A stretch of 32,000 nt of DNA from positions 1 to 32,000 of the forward strand of contig NC_018677.1 in NCBI RefSeq assembly GCF_000300075.1, read 5' to 3'. This DNA comes from Candidatus Saccharimonadota bacterium (lineage in GTDB: Bacteria > Pseudomonadota > Gammaproteobacteria > Johnevansiales > Johnevansiaceae). This document shows, piece after piece, positions 2,986 to 32,000 of this stretch; position 1 is the stretch's first letter; each line of letters opens with the position of its first letter. The position numbers were made by a program, and so were the translations under genes. The notes under the pieces are model-generated. The model had not been told where the DNA came from and ran no database searches. It was given only the letters and a program-made list of their open reading frames with translations.

Positions 2986-3735
2986 TTTATTAACTTTTTT
3001 ATTTGTTGTGTAGTTGTCATTTTATTTATTTTTAACTATTTTTCGGTTTTAGTATTTTCTGTCTTCTTAATCGTTGTTTTTATTTTGCTTTTTGTTTTAT
3101 TTGTTTTTTTTAGATTTTTTATTTTTTTTTGATGGAGTTAGCTGTTATGTTTTTTTGTTCTTATTATTAGTTGTTGTATTCTAGTTTATATTTTTTTATT
3201 AGTTATTTTATTTGGCTGTTATGTTTTGTTTGTTAAACTTGTGTTATTTTGTTTTGCTGGTATATTTGTATGTATAGAATTTGTTGTATTATGAGTAAGT
3301 AAGGGAAAAGTAGTTATATGCAAAATATCAAAATATAATAAATGATGGTTTAAAACGGTTAAAAGGTTTTTTGTTAACTGGCTAAAATAGTGGTAAGTTT
3401 GTTGTTAACAGATTATTGTTATAATTAATAAAAAAAATATATGTTAATATATATAATTGCTTTAGAATTTAGAATTTAGAGGTTAGAGTTGTTAGGTTAG
3501 AGGTTTGTTTAAAAGCTTTTAGAGGTTGGTTTAAAGAGTTTTTATTTATTTTTATTAGAGGTTTAATGTTTGCTTTAAAGATTTAAGACTTTATTTATTA
3601 GAGGTTATTTGTTTAGAGGTTAGAGTTGTTAGGTTAGAGGTTAGAAGTTTAAATAGTTAAAATGGTTGCTTTTATTATTTATTAGAGGTTATGTGTTATG
3701 TGTTAGATTTTAGATTAAAGATTTTATATGTTAAA

Positions 3736-3763
3736 GGTAAAAGGTAAAAGGTAAAATGTAAAA
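3736..3763 (+). repeat. Heptanucleotide tandem array (GGTAAAA)x3 plus variant TGTAAAA
   Basis: Read directly: ggtaaaa ggtaaaa ggtaaaa tgtaaaa. Confidence 0.9.
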
Positions 3764-3791
3764 TAAAAGAGGTTAGTTGTTTAGAGGTTAT

Positions 3792-3820
3792 CTGTTGCTG
3801 TTGCTGTTGCTGTTGCTGTT
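3792..3820 (+). repeat. Hexanucleotide microsatellite (CTGTTG)n, about 4.5 units
   Basis: Read directly: ctgttgctgttgctgttgctgttgctgtt, flanked on both sides by TTAGAGGTT. Confidence 0.9.
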
Positions 3821-4375
3821 AGAGGTTTATTTTTAAAAAAAGTTAATTGTTTAAATGTTTGCTTTTATTATTTATTATTAGATGTTTTCTATGTTATTTT
3901 TTAGATGTTAGTTGTTTAGTGGTTATATTAAAGTAAAGTTTTTATATGTAGTAAAAAATTAAAATATTGTATTTATATTATTTATGCTTTTTTTGGTTTT
4001 TAATAATAAGTTAACAACTAACATTAACTATCAACAAACAAAACAAATTTACAAGAAACAAATACACTAAAGCTAATAAACAACAAACCTTTTTCCCTTA
4101 AGCTATCAACTAATTAACAACAATTTTTACAATTACTAATAAACAACAAACATTTAGTTACGCTAACAAAAATTTACTACAACCATTTCTTTTTAAAATA
4201 ACAAACATACAACTATATACAAACATACCTTTTGATTTTAACAACACAAAACATAACTACAAATAAAAAAATAAAAGCAAGTAACACATAACTAGCACAA
4301 CGAAAACAAACAACAAAAAAAAATAAAATTACATATCACATATTTACTTAAAAAAAAGAATATAATTAAATTAGA

Positions 4376-18706: not shown

Positions 18707-18885
18707 ATCTATATTAATCTCTTTTTTTTTCTATTGATTGTTTTTTATTAGTTAGATCTTTAGAATTTGTATGTAAGATGATGTTTGTTGCTTTTATTTT
18801 TAATTAGAGATTAGAGACTTGAGTTTTTGTTTAAAGTTTTTTGTTTTGAGTTTTGTGGTTTGAGTTTTAAGATTAGAGTTTGTAT

Positions 18886-18947
18886 GTTAGAGGCTAGTTT
18901 AAAGAGTTTTGTTGTTAGAGGCTAGTTTAAAGAGTTTTGTTGTTAGA
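18886..18947 (+). repeat. 28-bp tandem repeat, 2 exact units plus a partial third (GTTAGAGGCTAGTTTAAAGAGTTTTGTT)
   Basis: Units at 18886-18913 and 18914-18941 are identical; GTTAGA restarts at 18942. Confidence 0.9.
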
Positions 18948-18958
18948 TGTGTTTGAAA

Positions 18959-19014
18959 GCTTGTAGCTTGTAGCTTGTAGCTTGTATGTTGTAGAATGTA
19001 GAATGTAGAATTTA
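18959..19014 (+). repeat. Compound heptanucleotide array: (GCTTGTA)x4, TGTTGTA, (GAATGTA)x2, GAATTTA
   Basis: Read directly with strict 7-bp phase across 8 units. Confidence 0.9.
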
Positions 19015-19144
19015 GATGTATGGTATTTTATGGTTTGTGTGTTGCAGTTTTGTGTTATGTGTTAAAGTTATGATTAAACGGTAGAAAGGGTTAAAAAAAA
19101 TAGACTAATGTTTAAATAAGGATGTATGGAAAAACAGATTAGTC

Positions 19145-19602: not shown

Positions 19603-19608
19603 GAATAT

Positions 19609-19614
19609 CTCCTT
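19609..19614 (-). promoter_or_regulatory. Shine-Dalgarno AAGGAG for rpmH
   Basis: The + strand reads ctcctt, which is AAGGAG on the minus strand, 6 nt upstream of the rpmH ATG. Confidence 0.55.
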
Positions 19615-21210
19615 TATTTATTTTCTTTAGTATTAATCTATATACTGAACCGGCAAATTTAAATTATATTTAAACCACCAACTAGTTTCTTTTCTTCTGT
19701 ACCTTAATACTAATTGATATAAATGTACCTTAATACTTAACGAAAGAACTAGATACTTATTTAAGTTACTACTTTCTTTTTAACAAACCTTTGTTTTTTT
19801 AAACCCAAAGACTATACCTTTAATAAAAAGCATCAATTTAAACAAACCCAATTTTATGTTTCTATAACCACTACAATTTAACAATACTTCAACAATACTA
19901 TATCTCTCTTTTTATTTACAATTTAAATTATCAATTGTTTACTAATCAACAAAATACTTACAACTATTTATTAACAACACTGTAATCTCATCTAAACACA
20001 TTAATCCCTTACTCTACTGTTTTATTTTTTTTACTTGTTGATTCGTTGCTAAATGTTGCTTATTTTTTTATTTATGTTCTGTTTTAGATTATTTTGTTTT
20101 TGCTGTATTATTTACTTGTTTAATTGCGTTGAGCTCTCTATGTTTTACCATCGAAATGGTATACTTCTTGTTTTTTTTGTTTTATGTTTATTAATTTATG
20201 CTTTATGTGTTTTGATTTTTGTATTTTGTGTTATTTTTACTCTGCTTAGTTTGTCCTGTTGTTATATTGCTTGTTATTTTTTTTTTATTTTATTATGTGT
20301 ATATTGTTTATGTGACCGTAAACTTTCTATTTTATTACCGTTATACAAGTTTAAACTTTTCAATTTTTGTTAGCTTTTTAAAATGTTCTTATGTATTAAA
20401 GCGTCTTTATTTACCATATATGTTATATTGTTACTGTATTATCTTTTCTGATTTTGTGTAGTTGTAGTTATGGTTTATGGTTTGTGGTTTTTGGTTTTTG
20501 GTTTTGTACCTGTGTTTTCTGTTATCATTTAGCACTTATGTTTTTTTTTTGTTTGACAATTTTTGTGTTTTCTGGTTTCTATTTTTTTTCTGCTTATTAT
20601 TTTCTTCTCTTTTATTTTGTTGTATTTTTGTATCAGTGTCTTTATGTTTTGTTTAGTTGTGTTTGAAAAAAATACTATCGGTTATTTAAATATGTTATAT
20701 GTTTATTAGTAAGGATAAAAGTGAAAGCTGTTATATGCTGCTTAAATTAGATGTTAGATGAGATTTTAAGATGTTAGATATTTGATGGATTGTTTTTAAG
20801 AGGTTTGCTGTTAATTATTGTTTTTAAGAGGTTTGTGGTTGGAAGATATGTTTTTATCTGTTAGTTATTAGAGGTTTGTTGTTTTTATGTTAGAGTTTAG
20901 AAAGTTTCTGGTTAGAGGAATTTTTGTTTAAAGTTGTTGTTTGATGTGTTTTTTTTAGAGGTTATTTTTTAGTTTATTGTTTTTTTGTTGTTAGTTTTAT
21001 GTTTTTTCTGATGTTTGTTGCTTTTATTGTTAATTAGAGATTAGAGTTTGGTTTTATGTTTTTGCTTTTGAGTTTTTATGTTTATGTTTATATTTTGTTT
21101 TGTTTAAAGTTTATTTATTAGATGTTGTTGTTTAGAGGTTTAGATGTTGGTGTTTTTAGATGTTAGATTGTTTTTTTATCTTTTAGAGGTTATATTATTA
21201 TTTTTTATGT

Positions 21211-21238
21211 TTTGATGTTTGATGTTTGATGTTGTATG
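21211..21238 (+). repeat. Heptanucleotide array (TTTGATG)x3 plus TTGTATG
   Basis: Read directly: tttgatg tttgatg tttgatg ttgtatg. Confidence 0.88.
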
Positions 21239-21645
21239 TTGTTTAAAACAGTTAAATTGTTAGTCTGTTATTTGAAAATTTATTATATGTTATTTGTTTA
21301 GATGTTTAGATGTTATTTGTTGTTTAATTATATTATTTTTAAGAATTTATGTTAAATGTTAAATGTTGTACTATTAATAAATTAGAGGTTATATTAGATT
21401 TTAGTTTTGTACGAAATTTGATTGAATGATTTTTGAGGTTGTATGTTAGAGTTTTATTTTATTTTTGTATGTATCTATATTATTAGAGGTTAATAGTTGT
21501 GTAATGTAACAGAGTTTGTATACCTGCTTTTCTTTTACAACAACAATAAGAACTAACACCATTTGTATGTTGCATTATTTATTTATTAGATGTTGATTTT
21601 TTGTTGTTTTGTTAAACTGTTTGCTGTTATGCTTTGTTTTATTAA

Positions 21646-21680
21646 TTAGAGATTAGAGATTAGAGATTAGTAGTTAGTTG
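21646..21680 (+). repeat. Heptanucleotide array (TTAGAGA)x3, then TTAGTAG and TTAGTTG
   Basis: Read directly. The same TTAGAGATTAGAG unit recurs at 18811, 21041 and 29054. Confidence 0.88.
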
Positions 21681-22252
21681 TTAATAGAAGTTATAAGTTG
21701 TAAGTTATTTTTTTATTTTAATGTGTTGTAGTTTAAACATGAACATGATCATGATGTACGCTATTACATGATAAGAAACGTGTTACTTGTGTTATATAAC
21801 TAAGTAATACATACAAATGTAAGTTTGTTAGATAATATACAGTAGGCAGTAGGTTTAGTGTGTATAAATGTGTAAAGTTGTCATCAATGTGTTGTGTTAA
21901 CAGAATTATTGTTTTGATATTTGGTGTGTTGAAGGATATGTTGTTTAAAAGATAATAAAAGTTGTAGAAGAAAAAGGAGATATGTTAGTTTGAATTATAG
22001 GAAGGGGTTTGTTGTTTTGGGTTTGATAGAAACTGTGTAAATCGAAAGTCTGGGTTATGGGTCAACAGGTGTATAGTAAATATAAAATGTAAATACGTTA
22101 AAAGAGAAGTTAGGTTGGTTATTAAAGGAGGTTTGTTAAAGTATTTGTGTATAAGGTTAAAATTGTGTTATTTGAGTAGTTTGTTAAATTGTTTTGTGTG
22201 TGTGTATATGTATGGGGTAGGTTTTTGAGAAAGAAAAGAGTTGTATATTTAT

Positions 22253-22266
22253 GGGGTGGGGTGGGG
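22253..22266 (+). repeat. G-run microsatellite GGGGTGGGGTGGGG
   Basis: Read directly. A fourth GGGG lies at 22214-22217 and a (TG)6 run at about 22195-22206. Confidence 0.9.
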
Positions 22267-22845
22267 TTACTATACGATTGGAAAGTAATAGGATTATAGG
22301 TTTGATGGAAGACAAAATAATGGACAAGTATTTGTTAATAGTTACTTAACTTAAAAAAGAGTTTATGAAATGGTAATAAAGATGTATAAATGGTGAAGAA
22401 GGATGTTAGTATAAGTAAATAATGAAGATTAAAAAAGTCAAAAGGTAATAAACTAAAAAAAAAAGAAGAATCATATTTATAAAAAAAAATGAGTTATTAA
22501 AAAGTAAAGAGATAAAACAAAAATTGTTTAAACGGTTACACAGAAATTTTATAAATATATACTAAACTAAAGAAATAAATCAAGCAAATCACAAACGTGA
22601 TAAAAAATATAATATAAATTACTCAGGGTAATAAAACTTAGTTTTAAGGGATAGTTGTTAATAGATGTCTTTATCAAGATGTGATAGAAACAAATTCTAT
22701 ATATACTTTATATAATAAATATAATAGTTGATTATGAAAAAAAACTATAAATAACAAAAGACTAAATTTCTTTATAACAAGGAATAATTATTTTAATAGA
22801 TTGTAATAAAAGCATAAGGTTTATTTAAAATGTTTATAATTTTTT

Positions 22846-25096: not shown

Positions 25097-25450
25097 CTTC
25101 TTTACTGGTTTTTCTTTTTAATTTCTATATTTTTCTGTAGCTGTTATATTTTTTTTTGTTACTCTTTGCACTTTTTTTTTATTATATTTTTATGTACTTT
25201 TAAAGACTTAAGTATTGTTATATCTTTTATATATTTTTATGCTATCTATTATAAACATAATTTATTGTTTCTGTTCTTTTTATGTTTAAAACTGTTTTGG
25301 TCGATTTTGGCTTTTGATTCTCTTAGTTAAATGATGTTGTTCTTGCTTTTAGTTTACTTATATTGTTTAAAGTTTATAGATGTTTTATAAGTTTTTGTTG
25401 CTTGGGGTAAGTAAATATTGTGTTGTGCAGTGAGAGAAATGTATAAAAGA

Positions 25451-25492
25451 GGAACAGGAACAGGAACAGGAACAGGAAGAGGAATAGGAATA
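25451..25492 (+). repeat. Compound hexanucleotide microsatellite (GGAACA)x4, GGAAGA, (GGAATA)x2
   Basis: Read directly in strict 6-bp phase. Confidence 0.9.
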
Positions 25493-25700
25493 GGTAGTAG
25501 TTAGTGTTATCAGTTAATAGGGGTTATCAGAGTATAAGTTAAATGTAAGATATAATAGAAGTGGTAGCGGGTAGATTCACATATGTAAGTGTAAGTATGT
25601 TAAAACTTTTTAAAATAGATAATTTGTATAATGTTAAAGAATATATGAATAATAAAAAGTTGATTTAAAGCATGGTTTGTGAATGCCGCTATAGATGGTA

Positions 25701-25774
25701 AGGCCTATAGCTCAATAGGTAAGAGCAGAGGACTCATAATCCTTGTGTTGTAGGTTCAAGTCCTACTAGGCCTA
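25701..25774 (+). tRNA. tRNA with CAU anticodon (elongator Met or lysidine-type Ile2; not initiator)
   Basis: Manual cloverleaf: acceptor AGGCCTA/TAGGCCT, D-arm GCTC-AATAGGTAA-GAGC, anticodon arm GAGGA-CTCATAA-TCCTT, variable loop GTGTT, T-arm GTAGG-TTCAAGT-CCTAC, discriminator A, no encoded CCA. It lacks the initiator features (1:72 mismatch, GGG/CCC anticodon stem). The AGGC... start and GTTCAAGTCC T-arm resemble E. coli ileX-type tRNA. Confidence 0.9.
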
Positions 25775-27695
25775 TAAAATCAGAAAGTCGGATAAAGATA
25801 TTAAATATAGTTAATAAGATTAAAATGTTGTTTTTAGTTACATTAATATTATTCTGAAAAATTTGAAGAGCTTTTATATATGCGTTAAATTTAGTATGTA
25901 GCGTATAACTTATATAAAAAATATCTTTGTAGTTACAATTACCGTTACTTAGTAACTTATTATAGGTTTGTTTAAAAAATAATATTGAATTAAATAATTT
26001 ATATTCTGCATTTGTTTTTAAATGTCTTATATTAACTGTCTTTTTTAAAAAGCAATTATGTTTATATTTTTTTTTAAATTGTTTTATAAAGTTATTTATT
26101 CTTTTATTAATTTCTATTATTTTGTAAATAAACGTATTATTAGTTAATAAATAATTAATTATATAACTCCGTCTAAACAAATCATAAGGACAATAACTTG
26201 TATGTTGTATAGAACCAAAACTTGTTTTATAGATATGTATTTTGTAAGTTATAATTAATAGTTTGTCTGTTATAAAACATATTATGTCCTTTACAAAATG
26301 ATTAAGTTTTAAAAAACAGTTGTACTGAGAAAAGGAATACAGAATCAAAAACCATAAATCTAAATTATATTCATTTAAAATAATAAGTTTTAATATTATA
26401 TAAGCTAATCTTCTTGTAAAGAAAATATCCTTACTATTATTAAATTTATAACCCAAATAAAAAAAACCTATTAAATCGTCTATTTTATTTGATAGGGATA
26501 AAGATATACCTTCTTTTGTATAAGGTAAAATATTTATATATTGATTTGGTAAATATTGTTGATACAATGTTTTATAGATTTCAAGTTTCTCTTTATTTAT
26601 ATAGCAATAATAAGATCCAATTAATCCTTTAAATAAGTTAAACTCATTAACAAAGTATGTAAGGAAATCACATTTTGCTAAATATCCAGCTCTAATAGTA
26701 ATGTAAACATTTCCACCTATATATTGTACATATTTTTTTAAAATGGTAATAATTCTACGAGTTTTATCAGCTAAAGTACCTAAGTTATATTGAAAAATTA
26801 CTAATTCTAAATCTTTAAAACGTTCATATAAATTTCTTTTTAAATCATATAGTACCAAACATAAAATATCATAAAAACAAATGTTTATATTCATTTCATA
26901 AAAAGTTATTAATTTTTTTTTATTTAAAGTATTTACATTTACAATAACAATGTATTTATTTGTTATAATGTTTTTTTTATTTAATAAAAGAAACCCTTTT
27001 TGTTTAAAATTAATAATAAAGATTGTTATTTCCTTCGGAAAATTTTTAAATATTTTATTAAAGTTTATAACTATCGCTACGGGCCACTCAACTAAATGAG
27101 TAATAAATCTTAATAGGACTTGATCTATACTTACGACTAAATTATGTTTATTAGAATTATATAAAATCATATGTCTAATTATTTCACATCTATAATTTAA
27201 TTTAACAAGTACATAACCAGGATACTTTACTTTTAATAAGTATTCATTACTATTTTTTAGTTTTATATATTTTTTACAATGTATTATATGACCATAAGTT
27301 TTTCTATTAGACAACATATTAAATAATTTAATGTTTATTATCTTTTTATTAAATAACAAAATAAACCATGTTATAGGACGTATAAACTTTTTTGACTTTT
27401 GTCCCCATCTCATTTGTTGTAATGCTGATATCTTTGTTAAAAAGATTTTTATAGCAATTTTAAGTATATGTTTTAATTTATTAACCAAAACTTTGTGTAT
27501 ACTGTCTATATGTATGGCAATACGTCTAGCTGTTGTAAAAACATTTATTGTATTAAAATAAAAATTTTCTTTATTTTGTTTATAGGTATATGTTCTGAAT
27601 TTTTGGTTTAAAATTCTTATAATATTGTTGATGATAATTTCATTAGCTTTTATAGGTAAGTTTTCAAAACCAACTTCAATAAATAAATTATTCAT
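25734..27695 (-). CDS. glyS: Glycine--tRNA ligase beta subunit
   Basis: 653-aa ORF, 8-nt overlap with the glyQ stop. GlyS-like blocks: VGFENLP, MRWG, LVEWPVAIV, LGTLADKTRRI, RAGYLAKCDFLT. The last ~10 residues (VGLEPTTQGL) are antisense to the tRNA gene. Confidence 0.9.
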   Translation of the reverse strand: MNNLFIEVGFENLPIKANEIIINNIIRILNQKFRTYTYKQNKENFYFNTINVFTTARRIAIHIDSIHKVLVNKLKHILKIAIKIFLTKISALQQMRWGQKSKKFIRPITWFILLFNKKIINIKLFNMLSNRKTYGHIIHCKKYIKLKNSNEYLLKVKYPGYVLVKLNYRCEIIRHMILYNSNKHNLVVSIDQVLLRFITHLVEWPVAIVINFNKIFKNFPKEITIFIINFKQKGFLLLNKKNIITNKYIVIVNVNTLNKKKLITFYEMNINICFYDILCLVLYDLKRNLYERFKDLELVIFQYNLGTLADKTRRIITILKKYVQYIGGNVYITIRAGYLAKCDFLTYFVNEFNLFKGLIGSYYCYINKEKLEIYKTLYQQYLPNQYINILPYTKEGISLSLSNKIDDLIGFFYLGYKFNNSKDIFFTRRLAYIILKLIILNEYNLDLWFLILYSFSQYNCFLKLNHFVKDIICFITDKLLIITYKIHIYKTSFGSIQHTSYCPYDLFRRSYIINYLLTNNTFIYKIIEINKRINNFIKQFKKKYKHNCFLKKTVNIRHLKTNAEYKLFNSILFFKQTYNKLLSNGNCNYKDIFYISYTLHTKFNAYIKALQIFQNNINVTKNNILILLTIFNIFIRLSDFIGLVGLEPTTQGL

Positions 27696-28551: not shown

Positions 28552-28748
28552 TCTACTTGTTTTCAGTTTATATTTTTTTTATAGGTATTTTTTTATATTA
28601 GTGTTTTTTTTTTTAACTTTCAATTCTTTTTTTTTAACTAATTCTTTGTTTTATTATTTTTCTATGTTTATTGCTATTTGCTTTAGATCTTTGCTTTTGT
28701 TGTTTTTATAGTTATTTTTAGCTGTTTTTTATTATTTGCCTTTGATAT

Positions 28749-28814
28749 TTGCTCTTGCTCTTGCTTTTGCTCTTGCTCTTGCTCTTGCTCTTGCTCTTGT
28801 TATTGTTATTGTTT
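28749..28814 (+). repeat. Compound hexanucleotide microsatellite (TTGCTC)x8 (one TTGCTT variant), (TTGTTA)x2, TTGTTT
   Basis: Read directly. It generates the spurious poly-Leu ORF 28749..28940. Confidence 0.92.
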
Positions 28815-29007
28815 TATGCATTATATGTTTTGTTAAAATTAATAGTTGTATTAGATAATAGCAGTAGTAAAAAGTTGCAATTGATGTTAGCTCTTGTTTA
28901 TTATATGTTAGTTTTGGCTGTTAGTTTGTATTGGTTATAGGCTGTTTGTTAAGTTATTAATTGTTAGAGGTTATGTTGTAGTTTGAAAAATTCAGCTTTC
29001 AGAATTC

Positions 29008-29035
29008 AGCTGTTAGCTGTTAGCTGTTAGCTGTT
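29008..29035 (+). repeat. Heptanucleotide array (AGCTGTT)x4
   Basis: Read directly: agctgtt x4, followed by agttt. Confidence 0.9.
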
Positions 29036-29491
29036 AGTTTAAAGATGTTGCTTTTTAGAGATTAGAGATTATACTGTTTGCTTGAATTGTTTATTAGAGG
29101 TTTTAGGAATTGTTTTGTTTGTTTGTTAGTTGTTATTTATTAGAGGTTTATTTATTTTGGAGGTTGTATGTTAGAGTTTTTATATGTTTTATTTGATTTT
29201 TTATATTCTATGTTTTTTTTGCTTTCTTTGTTCTTCTCTTTTTAGTATTTTGTATGTTTTTTTCTGTATATTGTTTTGTTTTTATCTGTACTATAGTTAA
29301 GCCTTGTATAAACTCTTTCGTCTTTTTCTATTGTCTTTAGTATTATGTATAGCAATACTACTATATTGTGTATGTTTAAATTTTAGATATTGTAGGCATT
29401 ATGTTGTATTTTAGATATTTAGTTATTTGAGGTTTGAGGTTTTGTTAATTTTGTTAGTTAGAGGAAGTAGGATGTTATTATGTTGGATAGA

Positions 29492-29519
29492 GCTTGTAGC
29501 TTGTATGTTGTAGGTTGTA
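29492..29519 (+). repeat. Heptanucleotide array (GCTTGTA)x2, TGTTGTA, GGTTGTA
   Basis: Read directly. The first 22 nt are identical to 18973-18994 in a different spacer. Confidence 0.9.
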
Positions 29520-29592
29520 GGAAAGTATTGGCTAAAAAGATTAAAGCTTTTTGAGGTTATATTGTTAGTCTGTTAGAGGATTTGTTTTAAAA

Positions 29593-29615
29593 TTAGAGGT
29601 TAGAGGTTAGAGGTT
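29593..29615 (+). repeat. Heptanucleotide array (TTAGAGG)x3
   Basis: Read directly: ttagagg ttagagg ttagagg tt. This is the tandem form of the dispersed TTAGAGGTT motif. Confidence 0.92.
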
Positions 29616-30608
29616 ATTTGTAATTTGTTGTTGATAAAAGTTTTATGTTTGATATTGCTTTTTGTGTTAGCTGTAATTAATGTTTGATATTCTGTGTTAA
29701 CAGGATAAATGCACGATGTTATAGGAATTGAATTAAAGTTAGCTGTTATAAAGTTTATGGGTTATGAGTAAGGTGTATTTGTGTTAGTAGTTAGGTAAGA
29801 AGTTGTTAAAGTAAGGTAGTAGAGGTAGGTTGTTAAATAAGTAAAAGTGTGTTATGTAAAGAAAAAAATAGATTTAGATGATTTGTGGAAGCTGTTAAAT
29901 AAATTAGTGAAATGCTAAATGTGTGTAATTGGATAGGTTAATGTGGTAAAAAAGGTTTGTAGGTTAGACTAGAACGTGTTAAAGGAAAAAAGAGAGAAGA
30001 AATTGTGGTTAGGGGTTGTATAAAGTTTTTTTTATAGGAAAAAGGGTGTGTATAATTATGGTTTTATGAGGTGTTTGTAAGAAGTAATATAAGAAAGGTA
30101 AAGAGAAAAAAAGAAATGTAGTATAAAAGAAAAAAGGGTTTGTATAATAATGGTTAAATGCTGTGTTAGGTAAAAGAGAGATATTTGTTTTTGGTAGAGT
30201 GATGAGAAGGTTAGTTAAAATGTATTAGATGTTGTTTTGTTTAACATTTGTGGTAAAAAATAGATGAGTAGTTAAAAGATAACTGATAGATGTGGTATAT
30301 ATATGAATTGTTTTAAAGTTAAGTACATAAAATTATTAATTGTTAATGGTATTAGGGGTATGCGTTTTGTTGAATATGTCTTATTAACTTAATTAAAGGT
30401 TAAATTTTAGCTTAGATGTTTTATTTGTCTATTATTTAGCGATAACAGGCATTATTGAGTTATTTTCGGTATAGGTAAAGTAAATGTATAATCATATTAA
30501 AAATATAAATTAGATGTTATGATTAATAGTTGATTAAATAGAATATAGATAGAGTGGTGTTATTGGTATTAATGGAATAATAGTAAGATTAGTATACAGG
30601 TTATATGT

Positions 30609-30708
30609 AAAAATGGAAGAGTCGGATAGGTTGTCAAAAAAAATAAGAGAAGTTATATAAAAATGGAAGAGTCGGATAAGTTGTCAAGAATATAAGAGAT
30701 ATTATATG
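30609..30708 (+). repeat. Roughly 50-bp tandem duplication, 2 copies (AAAAATGGAAGAGTCGGATA[G/A]GTTGTCAA...)
   Basis: AAATGGAAGAGTCGGATA occurs at 30611 and again at 30661. The first ~30 nt of each copy differ at 2 positions; the remainder is related but has indels. It lies 115-215 nt upstream of the ilvA ATG. Confidence 0.85.
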
Positions 30709-30822
30709 AAAAAAAGTAAAGATATTCGGCAATATAAGTTTAAAAAAACAAGTAAAGTCGTACAGTTTTACTAATAGAATAAAATTAAAATCATAAAATA
30801 AACAAAAAAAAAAGAAATAAAT

Positions 30823-32000
30823 ATGAATAACAGTGAATATAAAAGATATAACTTCATAGTAGAGAATTATGTAAAAAAAATACTTAAAGCAAAAGTGTAT
30901 GAACTTGCTAAAGAAACACCTTTAGCTTGTACGCCGTTACTTTCTACTTATTTAAAAAACAACATATTTATAAAGCGTGAAGATTTACAACTAAACTTTT
31001 CGTTTAAAGTTAGAGGCGCTTATAACTGTATGAGAAACTTATTAAAAAATAAGAATATTCAATGCGTAATTACAGCTTCAGCTGGAAACCATGCACAAGG
31101 AGTTGCTTTAGCGGCAAAAAAATTGGGTATAAAATCAATTATTATTATGCCAAAAGTTACACCTGAAATTAAGGTTTTATCTGTACAATCGATTGGATGT
31201 GAAGTTTTAATAAAAGGTGATAATTTTAATTCGTCTTTAAAGTATGCGTTAAGTTTAGTAAAGAATTATGGTTATACTTACATACCTCCTTTTGATGACA
31301 CAGAAGTTATTGCAGGTCAAGGCACTTTAGCGATGGAAGTATTAAAACAATATAAAAATAAAATACATGCAATATTTGTTCCAGTTGGCGGAGGAGGATT
31401 AATTGCAGGTATTACAGCGTATCTAAAATATTTACGTCCTAAAATAAAGATCGTTGGTGTAGAGCCAGAAGATTCTGCTTGTTTAAAAGAAGCAATTAAA
31501 TATGGTTATCCAATAACATTAAATACTATAGACATGTTTGCAGAAGGAGTAGCAGTATCACGGGTTGGAAAGAAGCCTTTAAAGTTAATAAAAAATATAT
31601 TAGACGATCTAATAACTGTTAATATAGATGAAATGTGTAGTGCAGTAAAAGATATATTTGAAAATACAAGAGCATTGGCAGAAGTTTCAGGAGCTTTATC
31701 TTTAGCTGGTTTAAAAAAATATATAATAAAACAAAACATTACAAATAAAAATTTAATTTGTGTTAATACTGGAGCAAATATTAATTTTGACAAATTACAA
31801 TATATAGCACATAGAACAGCACTAGGGGAAAACAAAGAATTAATATTAGCTATAAAATTACCTGAATCTATAGGGAGTTTAAAAAGTCTATGTAATATAA
31901 TAGGAAACAAGAAAAGGTTTACTGAATTAAATTATCGGTTTTTAAATAAAAAAAAAGCAAATATATTGATAGGTTTAAAAATAATTCCAGGGAATGAAGA
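30823..32000 (+). CDS. ilvA: Threonine dehydratase (threonine ammonia-lyase), biosynthetic type; 3' end outside the window
   Basis: Not in the ORF track because no stop falls in the window. By hand, the frame from the ATG at 30823 is open to base 32000. Motifs: FSFKVRGAYN (PLP lysine), SAGNHAQGVALAA, PPFDD, VPVGGGGLIAG, then the start of the C-terminal regulatory domain (ELILAIKLPESIGSLK). Confidence 0.93.
   Translation, partial: MNNSEYKRYNFIVENYVKKILKAKVYELAKETPLACTPLLSTYLKNNIFIKREDLQLNFSFKVRGAYNCMRNLLKNKNIQCVITASAGNHAQGVALAAKKLGIKSIIIMPKVTPEIKVLSVQSIGCEVLIKGDNFNSSLKYALSLVKNYGYTYIPPFDDTEVIAGQGTLAMEVLKQYKNKIHAIFVPVGGGGLIAGITAYLKYLRPKIKIVGVEPEDSACLKEAIKYGYPITLNTIDMFAEGVAVSRVGKKPLKLIKNILDDLITVNIDEMCSAVKDIFENTRALAEVSGALSLAGLKKYIIKQNITNKNLICVNTGANINFDKLQYIAHRTALGENKELILAIKLPESIGSLKSLCNIIGNKKRFTELNYRFLNKKKANILIGLKIIPGNE

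What the first reader, a model, noticed from the sequence alone, without database searches (positions are those of the whole stretch)
3461..3827. Oriented 9-mer TTAGAGGTT dispersed through three separate spacers
I read 22 exact copies of TTAGAGGTT, all on the + strand. Ten are in 3476-3827, six in 20868-21491 and six in 28964-29615. There are also many one-off variants: TTAGATGTT at about 3879, 3901, 20751, 21119, 21157, 21299, 21588, 30226, 30412 and 30521; TTAGAGGCT at 18887 and 18915; TAAGAGGTT at 20806 and 20828; and TTAGAGA arrays. It often occurs as TTATTAGAGGTT(A/T). I noticed no copies in coding sequence and no reverse-complement copies (AACCTCTAA), not even in the A/C-rich blocks. For a three-G 9-mer in this composition, fewer than one chance hit is expected in 32 kb. 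At 29593 it forms a pure tandem array (TTAGAGG)x3. Elsewhere it is interspersed at irregular spacing. That pattern suggests either a slippage seed that keeps being re-amplified and dispersed, or a strand-specific functional site such as a protein-binding, polarity or packaging signal.
Basis: seen in the sequence. Interest (0 to 1): 0.72.

Follow-up and report, generated by a model that had tools for sequence, protein, structure and literature searches.

The report
Heptamer repeat debris in Portiera spacers
The 9-mer is the commonest surviving unit of a family of 7-base slippage repeats that fills the oversized gaps between genes in the whitefly symbiont Portiera; this was already published for this genome, and nothing suggests the 9-mer is a functional signal.

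Summary
There are 22 exact TTAGAGGTT copies, all on the + strand and all in three spacers, against 0.44 expected. Enrichment survives local null models and collapsing of tandem copies.

The window comes from Candidatus Portiera aleyrodidarum of Bemisia tabaci. Sloan & Moran (2013) already described expanded, microsatellite-filled spacers there, with a sharp 7-bp spike in repeat units and indels. They linked this to loss of dnaQ, mutL, dnaN, ssb and other genes.

TTAGAGG(TT) is the commonest unit of that heptamer family:
- Every large spacer shows 7/14/21-base periodicity.
- Motif flanks match TTAGAGG in register for about two units on each side.
- Sister strains differ mainly by indels that are multiples of 7 bases, including gains and losses of TTAGAGG units.
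- One 31-base tract was recently copied between two motif sites.

The strict + orientation is regional. Reverse-complement copies appear in A/C-rich blocks 1.2 kb beyond the window. In a region about 150 kb away the count is 4 forward and 5 reverse.

The motif is absent from the related Singhiella symbiont, whose spacers have a 5-base period and different units. No promoter, terminator, RBS, RNA-family, DnaA-box or folding signal was found.

Verdict: neutral slippage debris, already known in kind. The functional-site reading is unsupported.

The parts
2986..4375 (.). dnaJ-nuoN spacer (1390 bp). It has a G/T-rich (+) block at about 3114-3972 and an A/C-rich (+) block at about 4031-4323.
   Evidence: Gene calls; block limits from the skew scan; sequence. 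The ancestral neighbour pnp is gone from this position and left no remnant.
3461..3930 (+). Degenerate heptad array holding 10 exact TTAGAGGTT copies plus TTTAGAA, TTAGATT, GTTATGT, AAAGGTA, CTGTTG and TTAGATG sub-arrays.
   Evidence: Eight of the nine copy spacings are 0 or +/-1 modulo 7 (list). Autocorrelation peaks at lags 7, 14 and 21. Strain polymorphism consists of 7-, 14- and 21-base indels.
3475..3505 (+). 31-base tract TTTAGAGGTTAGAGTTGTTAGGTTAGAGGTT, first copy.
   Evidence: 100% identical to 3612-3642. Other strains have a pure (TTAGAGG)3 or a shorter form here.
3612..3642 (+). Second copy of the same 31-base tract. Other strains carry a single TTAGAGG here, 21 bases shorter.
   Evidence: The tract is present only in the window / CP016304 lineage, which indicates a recent non-tandem copy event.
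18760..19144 (+). G/T-rich block between nuoA and rnpA, with a 28-base higher-order repeat carrying TTAGAGGCT (18887, 18915) and AGCTTGT and TGTAGAA heptamer arrays.
   Evidence: It has the strongest heptad autocorrelation (0.18 at lag 7 and 0.17 at lag 14).
19603..22845 (.). rpmH-gyrB spacer (3243 bp), where the ancestral dnaN has been lost. It is A/C-rich (+) at 19793-20014 and G/T-rich (+) from about 20437.
   Evidence: No dnaN remnant. No excess of DnaA-box-like sites.
20655..21490 (+). G/T-rich block with 6 exact copies (20868-21491) and TTAGATG and TAAGAGG variants.
21645..21670 (+). (TTAGAGA)3.7 array, a one-mismatch derivative unit.
   Evidence: unit given as ATTAGAG.
28552..30822 (.). 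glyQ-ilvA spacer (2271 bp), mostly G-rich and C-poor on the + strand.
28964..29616 (+). Six exact copies, including the pure tandem (TTAGAGG)3.4 at 29593-29616. Neighbouring AGCTGTT, TTAGAGA, TTTGAGG and TTGTAGG heptamer arrays.

Best explanation
TTAGAGGTT is one 7-base unit (TTAGAGG) plus the TT that opens the next heptad. It is the most abundant surviving member of a family of heptamer microsatellites that has built the oversized spacers of Bemisia tabaci Portiera.

Proposed mechanism:
- This lineage lost the proofreading subunit, mismatch repair, sliding clamp, clamp loader and SSB. This is shown by the literature.
- Nascent strands then slip or re-anneal out of register, most often by 7 bases, adding or removing units. 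The link to the gene losses is inferred. The 7-base indels between strains are shown.
- Point mutations, mostly loss of G, turn units into variants such as TTAGATG, TTAGAGA and TTAGAGT. These variants are amplified in turn. Intact units are left scattered inside short degenerate arrays.
- Short tracts are also copied between motif sites and between spacers. This is shown for one 31-base tract, and 25-50-base tracts are shared at 90-97% identity.
- The strand polarity is inherited. Slippage copies in direct orientation, and the founder units carried G but no C. Under AT-biased mutation G is lost but C is rarely gained, so each block stays G/T-rich on one strand. Blocks of opposite polarity carry the reverse complement.

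The motif has no function of its own.
For: Source: gyrB is closest to Portiera. The window differs by 1 mismatch in 19 kb from CP016304.1, the Portiera of B. tabaci MEAM1.

Literature: Sloan & Moran 2013 (PMC3673631) report for this genome expanded intergenic regions, microsatellite proliferation, a 'dramatic spike at 7 bp' in repeat units, and 7-bp indels. They also report loss of dnaQ, dnaN, dnaX, holA, holB, mutL, ruvC and ssb.

Found here:
- 55 of 82 exact tandem runs in 45 kb have period 7.
- Every large spacer shows autocorrelation peaks at 7, 14 and 21, whereas coding DNA shows period 3.
- Motif flanks match TTAGAGG in register at 0.42 (1-7 nt) and 0.38 (8-14 nt), against about 0.29 out of register.
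- There are 44 one-mismatch variants on the + strand against 6 on the - strand. 31 of the 44 changes fall at the three G positions.
- Among sister strains, 13 of 24 gap events are multiples of 7, including 7- and 21-base changes of TTAGAGG units. Substitutions are few: 5 columns in 3.4 kb and 13 in 1.4 kb.
- An identical 31-base tract sits at two sites in only one lineage.
- Short tracts are shared between spacers in both orientations.
- Reverse-complement copies lie in A/C-rich blocks.
- There are 0 copies in 22 kb each of the Singhiella and Aleurodicus symbionts. Singhiella spacers have period 5 and different units.
Against: - Only 3 of the 22 copies are in pure tandem. Only 3 of the 66 exact period-7 runs use the TTAGAGG unit. 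Slippage is therefore not specific to this unit, and its dominance as a singleton is explained only by assuming it is old, ancestral, or preferentially copied.
- Polarity is uniform across about 50 kb around the window, with 40 forward and 0 reverse copies. BT genomes also have a net +9% whole-genome GC skew (PMC13637331). Both hint at a larger-scale organising force that local slippage alone does not predict.
- The direction of mutation (G loss, rare C gain) is inferred from variant spectra, not measured.
- The link between the 7-base step and the lost replisome parts is correlation only.
Confidence: 0.78

Rival explanations
1. A strand-specific functional site. TTAGAGGTT would be bound by a protein or read by a translocase as a polarity, packaging, replication or segregation signal (KOPS/Chi-like), and kept by selection in spacers.
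For: - Sharp 9-10-base core with unconserved immediate flanks.
- 22 exact copies against fewer than 1 expected.
- 40 forward and 0 reverse copies over about 62 kb around the window.
- Enrichment survives collapsing of tandem copies.
Against: - Orientation tracks local block composition and is 4 forward to 5 reverse in another 40-kb region.
- Polarity flips within single spacers.
- Copies are confined to spacers, unlike KOPS or Chi.
- Copy number in one spacer ranges from 4 to 10 among near-identical strains, and a deletion of about 300 bases removes several copies.
- The motif is absent from the Singhiella and Aleurodicus symbionts.
- Flanks carry decayed units in register.
- This lineage has lost most DNA-handling proteins.
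Confidence: 0.05
2. A by-product of replication- or transcription-coupled mutational asymmetry. One strand is driven towards G+T, for example by cytosine deamination of exposed single strands without SSB or repair, and the motif is simply what that composition favours.
For: - Spacers are T>A and G>>C, with skews of 0.6-0.9.
- B. tabaci Portiera genomes have a net whole-genome GC skew of +8.5 to +9.1.
- A polarity domain of about 50 kb surrounds the window.
Against: - Composition alone predicts 0.2-1.1 copies, not 21.
- Blocks of opposite polarity abut inside single spacers (3972/4031; 20014/20437).
- Spacers lying between two + strand genes can be either G/T-rich or A/C-rich on the + strand.
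- The Singhiella block is A/C-rich in the sense of both its flanking genes.
- No DnaA-box cluster or clean skew switch marks an origin.
Confidence: 0.1
3. A Shine-Dalgarno-like or translation-related element. GAGGT is complementary to the anti-SD, so copies might be ribosome-binding sites for small ORFs or decoys.
For: The sequence contains GAGGT (direct reading). A 2019 study predicted 37 SD sequences in B. tabaci Portiera spacers with consensus AGGAG (PMC6699477).
Against: - No copy is followed at 3-13 nt by a start codon opening an ORF longer than 28 codons, and 8 of 22 have no start codon at all.
- The G/T-rich strand is dense in stop codons in all frames.
- Most real genes here lack a recognisable SD.
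Confidence: 0.02
4. A small mobile or REP/MITE-like dispersed element that inserts into spacers.
For: Tracts of 25-50 bases containing the motif recur in different spacers at 90-97% identity, in both orientations.
Against: - No conserved element boundaries, terminal inverted repeats or palindrome.
- Folding is no better than shuffles: DNA z = -0.36, RNA z = +1.63.
- No transposase-like ORF in the spacers.
- Shared tracts are short and grade into generic heptad sequence.
Confidence: 0.03

Closest known systems
7-bp microsatellite proliferation in intergenic regions of Portiera from Bemisia tabaci (Sloan & Moran 2013, Genome Biol Evol 5:783; PMC3673631)
   Same: Same organism and same spacers. 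The unit length is 7, indels between strains are 7 bases, the repeats are concentrated in intergenic DNA, and they are associated with loss of dnaQ, mutL, dnaN and ssb and with the absence of a deletion bias (reproduced).
   Different: The text of that paper, as searched, does not name the units, their relatedness, or their strand polarity. New details here are TTAGAGG(TT) as the commonest unit, the G-without-C single-strand composition, the block-wise polarity, and a copy event between two motif sites.
Expanded repeat-rich spacers of Portiera from Singhiella simplex (Santos-Garcia et al. 2020, PMC7821994)
   Same: Sister lineage with a pseudogenised dnaQ and 40% intergenic DNA. Its spacers are likewise almost free of one of G or C on a given strand.
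   Different: The period is 5, 10 or 15, not 7. The dominant units are TGTTA/TATGT, and TTAGAGG is absent. The paper's table lists only 3 tandem repeats for this genome.
Oriented chromosomal oligomers (KOPS / FtsK-orienting polar sequences, Chi)
   Same: A short oligomer that is strongly over-represented on one strand over tens of kilobases.
   Different: KOPS and Chi occur throughout coding DNA and switch strand at the origin and at dif. This motif is confined to low-complexity spacers, flips at kilobase scale, and varies in copy number between strains.
Cryptic simplicity, or microsatellite birth-and-decay by replication slippage (general concept, from my own knowledge)
   Same: Short units are duplicated in direct orientation, mutated and re-amplified. 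The result is degenerate arrays with residual periodicity.
   Different: The scale is unusual for a bacterium: about 30% of a 350-kb genome. So is the sharply preferred 7-base step.

Membership tests
Portiera-BT intergenic heptamer microsatellites (Sloan & Moran 2013) | Genome is Portiera of the Bemisia tabaci complex | tested here: met
   gyrB is closest to Portiera. The window has 1 mismatch in 19 kb to CP016304.1. That record is titled Portiera ... MEAM1.
Portiera-BT intergenic heptamer microsatellites (Sloan & Moran 2013) | Repeats lie in abnormally long intergenic regions | tested here: met
   All 22 copies lie in spacers of 1.4-3.2 kb. There are 0 copies in 69 kb of coding DNA sampled.
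Portiera-BT intergenic heptamer microsatellites (Sloan & Moran 2013) | Unit length of 7 bases predominates | tested here: met
   55 of 82 exact tandem runs have period 7. Autocorrelation peaks at 7, 14 and 21. TRF reports (TTAGAGG)3.4 at 29593-29616.
Portiera-BT intergenic heptamer microsatellites (Sloan & Moran 2013) | Strains differ by 7-base indels inside the repeats | tested here: met
   13 of 24 gap events are multiples of 7, including TTAGAGG units.
Portiera-BT intergenic heptamer microsatellites (Sloan & Moran 2013) | Absent from Portiera lineages with stable, compact genomes | tested here: met
   0 motif copies and no period-7 spike in Aleurodicus Portiera L002 or in compact Portiera L221.
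Oriented polar motifs (KOPS/Chi type) | Strand bias follows replichores, with one switch at the origin and one at the terminus | tested here: not met
   Polarity flips within single spacers and several times within 40 kb. The counts are 40/0 forward/reverse in one region and 4/5 in another. Only about 100 kb of 352 kb was sampled.
Oriented polar motifs (KOPS/Chi type) | Occurs in coding as well as non-coding DNA | tested here: not met
   0 copies in 69 kb of coding sequence, although few are expected from composition.
Oriented polar motifs (KOPS/Chi type) | Cognate reader protein (FtsK, RecBCD/AddAB) is encoded | not testable with these tools
   The whole gene set was not available here. The literature lists extensive loss of replication, recombination and repair genes.
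Shine-Dalgarno site | Lies 4-12 nt upstream of the start codon of a real ORF | tested here: not met
   The longest ORF after any copy is 28 codons, and 8 of 22 copies have no start codon in range.
REP/BIME/MITE-type dispersed repeats | Palindromic or terminal-inverted-repeat structure with defined ends | tested here: not met
   No conserved flanks. Folding is no better than shuffles.
oriC DnaA-box / iteron cluster | Cluster of DnaA-box-like 9-mers in the rpmH-gyrB region | tested here: not met
   TTATNCACA with up to 1 mismatch gives 64 matches against 71 expected, with no cluster. The motif itself does not resemble the box, and only 6 of 22 copies are in that spacer.

The most novel reading that the evidence does not exclude
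The preferred slippage step (7 bases in the Bemisia lineage, 5 in the Singhiella lineage) and the G-without-C strand composition could be direct footprints of two differently crippled replisomes. TTAGAGGTT-type units would then act as the preferred microhomology for template switching. That switching would copy tracts between spacers and seed the inversions that scrambled this genome. The motif would be an active driver of genome instability, not inert debris.
Probability: 0.15. Interest if true: 0.55.

Novelty: already known. Interest (0 to 1): 0.22.

Why it matters
The finding matters mainly as a correct classification. An eye-catching oriented 9-mer turns out to be the visible tip of a published mutational phenomenon, not a new signal.

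Three details add modest value and could be followed up with complete genomes:
- The heptamer units form one related family centred on TTAGAGG.
- Each block contains G but almost no C on one strand, with block-wise polarity. This probably underlies the odd net GC skew reported for these genomes.
- The sister Singhiella lineage shows the same process with a 5-base step.

A lineage-specific slippage step in bacteria that lost the clamp, clamp loader, proofreader and SSB would be a natural experiment on what sets polymerase slippage length.

Tried and rejected
- Metagenome scan for motif pairs, meant to reach the complete JGI Portiera contig.
- Literature search for 'TTAGAGG'. It returned only primer and telomere hits.
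- Pseudogene remnants in the spacers. tblastn with ancestral DnaN, PNPase, RbfA, RpsO, MnmE, MnmG, YidC and others found nothing.
- Rfam at gathering and E-value thresholds. Only tRNA-Met was found.
- Promoter and terminator scan of spacer 1. It found 8 promoter-like sites against 11 expected and 0 terminators.
- DnaA boxes. No excess.
- SD plus ORF test. Negative.
- DNA and RNA folding of 3461-3827. No better than shuffles.
- Rule linking the G/T-rich strand to the sense strand of flanking genes, or to ancestral leading-strand genes. There were counter-examples in both directions.
- Inverted similarity between the G/T-rich and A/C-rich halves of spacer 1. None found.
I worked around this through cluster listings.
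- The PNPase homology search first suggested that B. tabaci Portiera lacks pnp. The cluster listing corrected this.
Full report
**Observation**

TTAGAGGTT occurs 22 times in the window, always on the + strand. There are 10 copies at 3476-3827, 6 at 20868-21491 and 6 at 28964-29615, and no reverse-complement copy. Whole-window shuffles give a mean of 0.44.

All copies lie between genes. The genes are dnaK, dnaJ, the nuoN-A operon (- strand), rnpA, rpmH, gyrB, tRNA-Met, glyS, glyQ and ilvA. TTAGAGGTT is the most frequent 9-mer in the spacers, ahead of poly-T.

TTAGATGTT occurs 13 times, one of them inside gyrB.

The spacers are strongly G/T-rich on the + strand, so I recomputed expectations from those blocks alone (4952 bp). 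Markov orders 0-2 give 0.2-1.1 copies. A self-trained order-3 model gives 4.1 +/- 2.1, against 21 observed. Only 3 copies are in exact 7-base register with another copy. Merging copies 14 bases apart or less leaves 20 clusters. The enrichment is real and is not a tandem-array artefact.

**Source**

GyrB is closest to Candidatus Portiera aleyrodidarum: 73% identity to the Singhiella simplex strain and 70% to the Aleurodicus strain. Exact-protein look-ups place the window on Portiera genomes of Bemisia tabaci.
- 19,155 bases differ by one mismatch from CP016304.1.
- That record is titled as the MEAM1 strain.
- The same sequences occur in several independent NCBI, JGI and Logan assemblies, so this is not an assembly artefact.

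**What is already known**

Sloan & Moran (2013, PMC3673631) described exactly this genome as having:
- abnormally long intergenic regions;
- a proliferation of microsatellites there;
- a 'dramatic spike at 7 bp' in tandem-repeat unit length;
- loss of dnaQ, dnaN, dnaX, holA, holB, mutL, ruvC and ssb.

Later papers tie the instability to dnaQ loss across the Aleurolobini (PMC7821994). They also note loss of a clear GC-skew pattern (PMC5322561) and a net positive whole-genome GC skew of 8.5-9.1 (PMC13637331). In the text I could search, none of them names the repeat units or their polarity.

**The motif belongs to that heptamer family**

- In 45 kb around the window, 55 of 82 exact tandem runs have period 7. 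In a second region 11 of 19 do.
- Every large spacer shows autocorrelation peaks at lags 7, 14 and 21. The nuo operon shows the coding period of 3.
- TTAGAGGTT is a TTAGAGG unit plus the TT that begins the next heptad.
- With other exact copies masked, flanks match the TTAGAGG consensus in register at 0.42 within 7 nt and 0.38 at 8-14 nt. Other registers give about 0.29, and the signal fades beyond 15 nt.
- In spacer 1, eight of the nine gaps between copies are 0 or +/-1 modulo 7 (list).
- One-mismatch relatives are 44 on the + strand against 6 on the - strand. 31 of the 44 are changes at the three G positions: TTAGATGTT 13, TTAGAGATT 7 and TTAGAGTTT 5. This is what decay under AT-biased mutation would give.
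- Many other period-7 units are one or two changes from TTAGAGG, for example TTAGAGA, TAAGAGG, TTTGAGG, TTAGATG, TTGTAGG and TTAGATT. However, 45 unit classes exist, and TTAGAGG itself forms only 3 of the 66 exact period-7 runs. The 7-base step is therefore a property of the process, not of this unit.

**Dynamics among sister strains**

The dnaJ-nuoN spacer ranges from 1096 to 1396 bases across nine assemblies. Across three spacers, 13 of 24 gap events are multiples of 7. Most of the rest are allelic states of hexamer arrays. Substitutions are rare: 5 variable columns in 3.4 kb and 13 in 1.4 kb.

TTAGAGG units are directly involved:
- At 3476-3505 other strains carry (TTAGAGG)3 or fewer units.
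- At 3613-3642 other strains carry a single unit, 21 bases shorter.
- The window lineage alone has an identical 31-base tract at both places (3475-3505 and 3612-3642). The tract includes an odd AGTTGTT insert. That points to copying between motif sites rather than independent slippage.
- The number of exact copies in this one spacer ranges from 4 to 10 among strains. A deletion of about 300 bases removes several copies.

Tracts of 25-50 bases at 90-97% identity are shared between different spacers. One of them links the pnp-downstream spacer, about 155 kb away, to 3483-3532.

**Orientation**

The reverse complement has three C's, so it cannot occur in blocks where C is about 3-7%. The real question is what A/C-rich blocks contain. 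The window has only about 0.5 kb of these.

- Just beyond the right end, the fpr-atpB spacer is A/C-rich on the + strand. Read on the - strand it shows the same family, including one AACCTCTAA.
- I extended the sampling through cluster listings and context look-ups.
- In about 62 kb around the window, spacers have 10.85 kb G/T-rich(+) against 3.4 kb A/C-rich(+), and 40 forward to 0 reverse copies.
- In 40 kb at CP016327 138-178 kb they have 3.85 against 4.15 kb, and 4 forward to 5 reverse copies.
- Polarity flips inside single spacers (3972/4031 and 20014/20437).
- Polarity bears no consistent relation to the orientation of flanking genes.

The 'oriented' property is therefore a block property. 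It happens to be uniform for about 50 kb here. It is not a genome-wide strand rule.

The excess of G/T-rich(+) blocks in my roughly 100-kb sample agrees in sign with the published net GC skew. I could not map the whole genome.

**Comparison with relatives**

The Singhiella and Aleurodicus Portiera loci (22 kb each) have no copy of the motif. Compact Portiera show no period-7 spike.

The Singhiella symbiont also has a dead dnaQ and 40% intergenic DNA. Its spacers show the same kind of sequence with a different step and different units:
- skews of -0.8 to -1.0;
- only 1.9% C on the G/T-rich strand;
- 46 exact period-5 runs in 22 kb;
- autocorrelation at 5, 10, 15 and 20;
- dominant (TGTTA)n, and no TTAGAGG.

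Lineage-specific units with a shared architecture argue for a mutational process rather than a conserved site.

**Origin of the spacers**

In compact relatives, dnaN lies between rpmH and gyrB, and pnp lies next to dnaJ. In B. tabaci Portiera, dnaN is lost and pnp has moved. The spacers at these places contain no detectable remnant of either gene. They are made of repeat-derived sequence, not recognisable pseudogenes.

**Tests for function**

- No Rfam family other than tRNA-Met.
- No excess of promoter-like sites and no terminators in spacer 1.
- No DnaA-box excess.
- GAGGT resembles a Shine-Dalgarno core, but no copy precedes an ORF longer than 28 codons. Real genes here mostly lack an SD.
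- The 3461-3827 stretch folds no better than shuffles: DNA z = -0.36, RNA z = +1.63.

**Mechanism I commit to (confidence about 0.78)**

Replication slippage and short-range template switching occur in a lineage with a stripped-down replisome and no mismatch repair. The preferred step is 7 bases. This repeatedly duplicates, deletes and copies heptamers. Point mutation, mainly loss of G, diversifies them.

TTAGAGG is the commonest, probably oldest, unit. It survives as scattered intact cores inside short degenerate arrays.

Strand polarity is inherited. Slippage copies in direct orientation, and the founder units had G but no C. Under AT-biased mutation G is lost while C is rarely gained.

Shown here or in the literature:
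- the periodicity;
- the 7-base indels;
- the copy event between two motif sites;
- the block-wise polarity;
- the lineage specificity.

Inferred:
- the causal role of the lost genes;
- the mutation direction;
- the ancestral status of TTAGAGG.

Unexplained:
- why the step is 7 here and 5 in Singhiella;
- why polarity is uniform over about 50 kb around the window.

**Verdict**

The phenomenon is already published for this genome, so interest is low. The motif identity, the polarity structure and the 5-base counterpart in Singhiella are modest new details.

Noticed in passing
L001 15814-19610 and 21348-22253 (Portiera of Singhiella simplex): These spacers are almost pure A/C/T on one strand, with GC skew -0.8 to -1.0. 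They are built from 5-base units ((ACATA)n, (AACCT)n, (ACTAA)n, (CAACA)n). There are 46 exact period-5 runs in 22 kb, and autocorrelation peaks at 5, 10, 15 and 20. The 2020 genome paper's table lists only 3 tandem repeats for this genome.
   Followed up: partly
Just right of the window: L081 20350-21670 compared with L227 10775-18601: CP016304.1 goes from fpr straight to atpB across a 1.3-kb spacer. CP007563.1 has yidC-mnmE-mnmG plus a 3-kb spacer between them. This matches the polymorphic segment of about 6.1 kb flanked by 349-bp repeats that Sloan & Moran 2013 described.
   Followed up: partly
window 25701-25774 (+) and 25734-27695 (-): The tRNA-Met gene overlaps the 3' end of glyS on the opposite strand by 41 bases.
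   Followed up: no
window 3792-3820: The (CTGTTG) hexamer array between two motif copies is length-polymorphic among strains (about 1 to 7 units). One lineage carries a CTGTTGATG variant.
   Followed up: yes
window 25450-25494, 28749-28799, 22252-22267, 30604-30713: Other simple repeats that are not heptamers: (AGGAAC)7.5, (TTGCTC)8.5, (TGGGG)3.2, and a 50-base unit repeated 2.2 times just upstream of ilvA.
   Followed up: no
window 4031-4323 and 19793-20014: These A/C-rich (+) blocks abut G/T-rich blocks within the same spacers. The first shows no heptad periodicity and carries no motif copies, so it may be an older or different kind of low-complexity sequence.
   Followed up: partly
L223 12443-12492 compared with window 3483-3532: A 50-base tract (TTAGAGGTTTGTTT(T)AAAGCTTTTAGAGGTT...) is 90% identical between the spacer downstream of pnp (CP016327, about 160 kb) and the spacer downstream of dnaJ. 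pnp and dnaJ are adjacent, convergent neighbours in compact Portiera (L221). The shared tract may therefore mark an old rearrangement breakpoint.
   Followed up: partly
window 20053-20373 (+), 20219-20461 (+), 31506-31910 (-): ORFs of 80-134 codons lie in a spacer or antisense to ilvA. The two I scanned (20053-20373 and 31506-31910) have no family match. All are probably spurious.
   Followed up: partly
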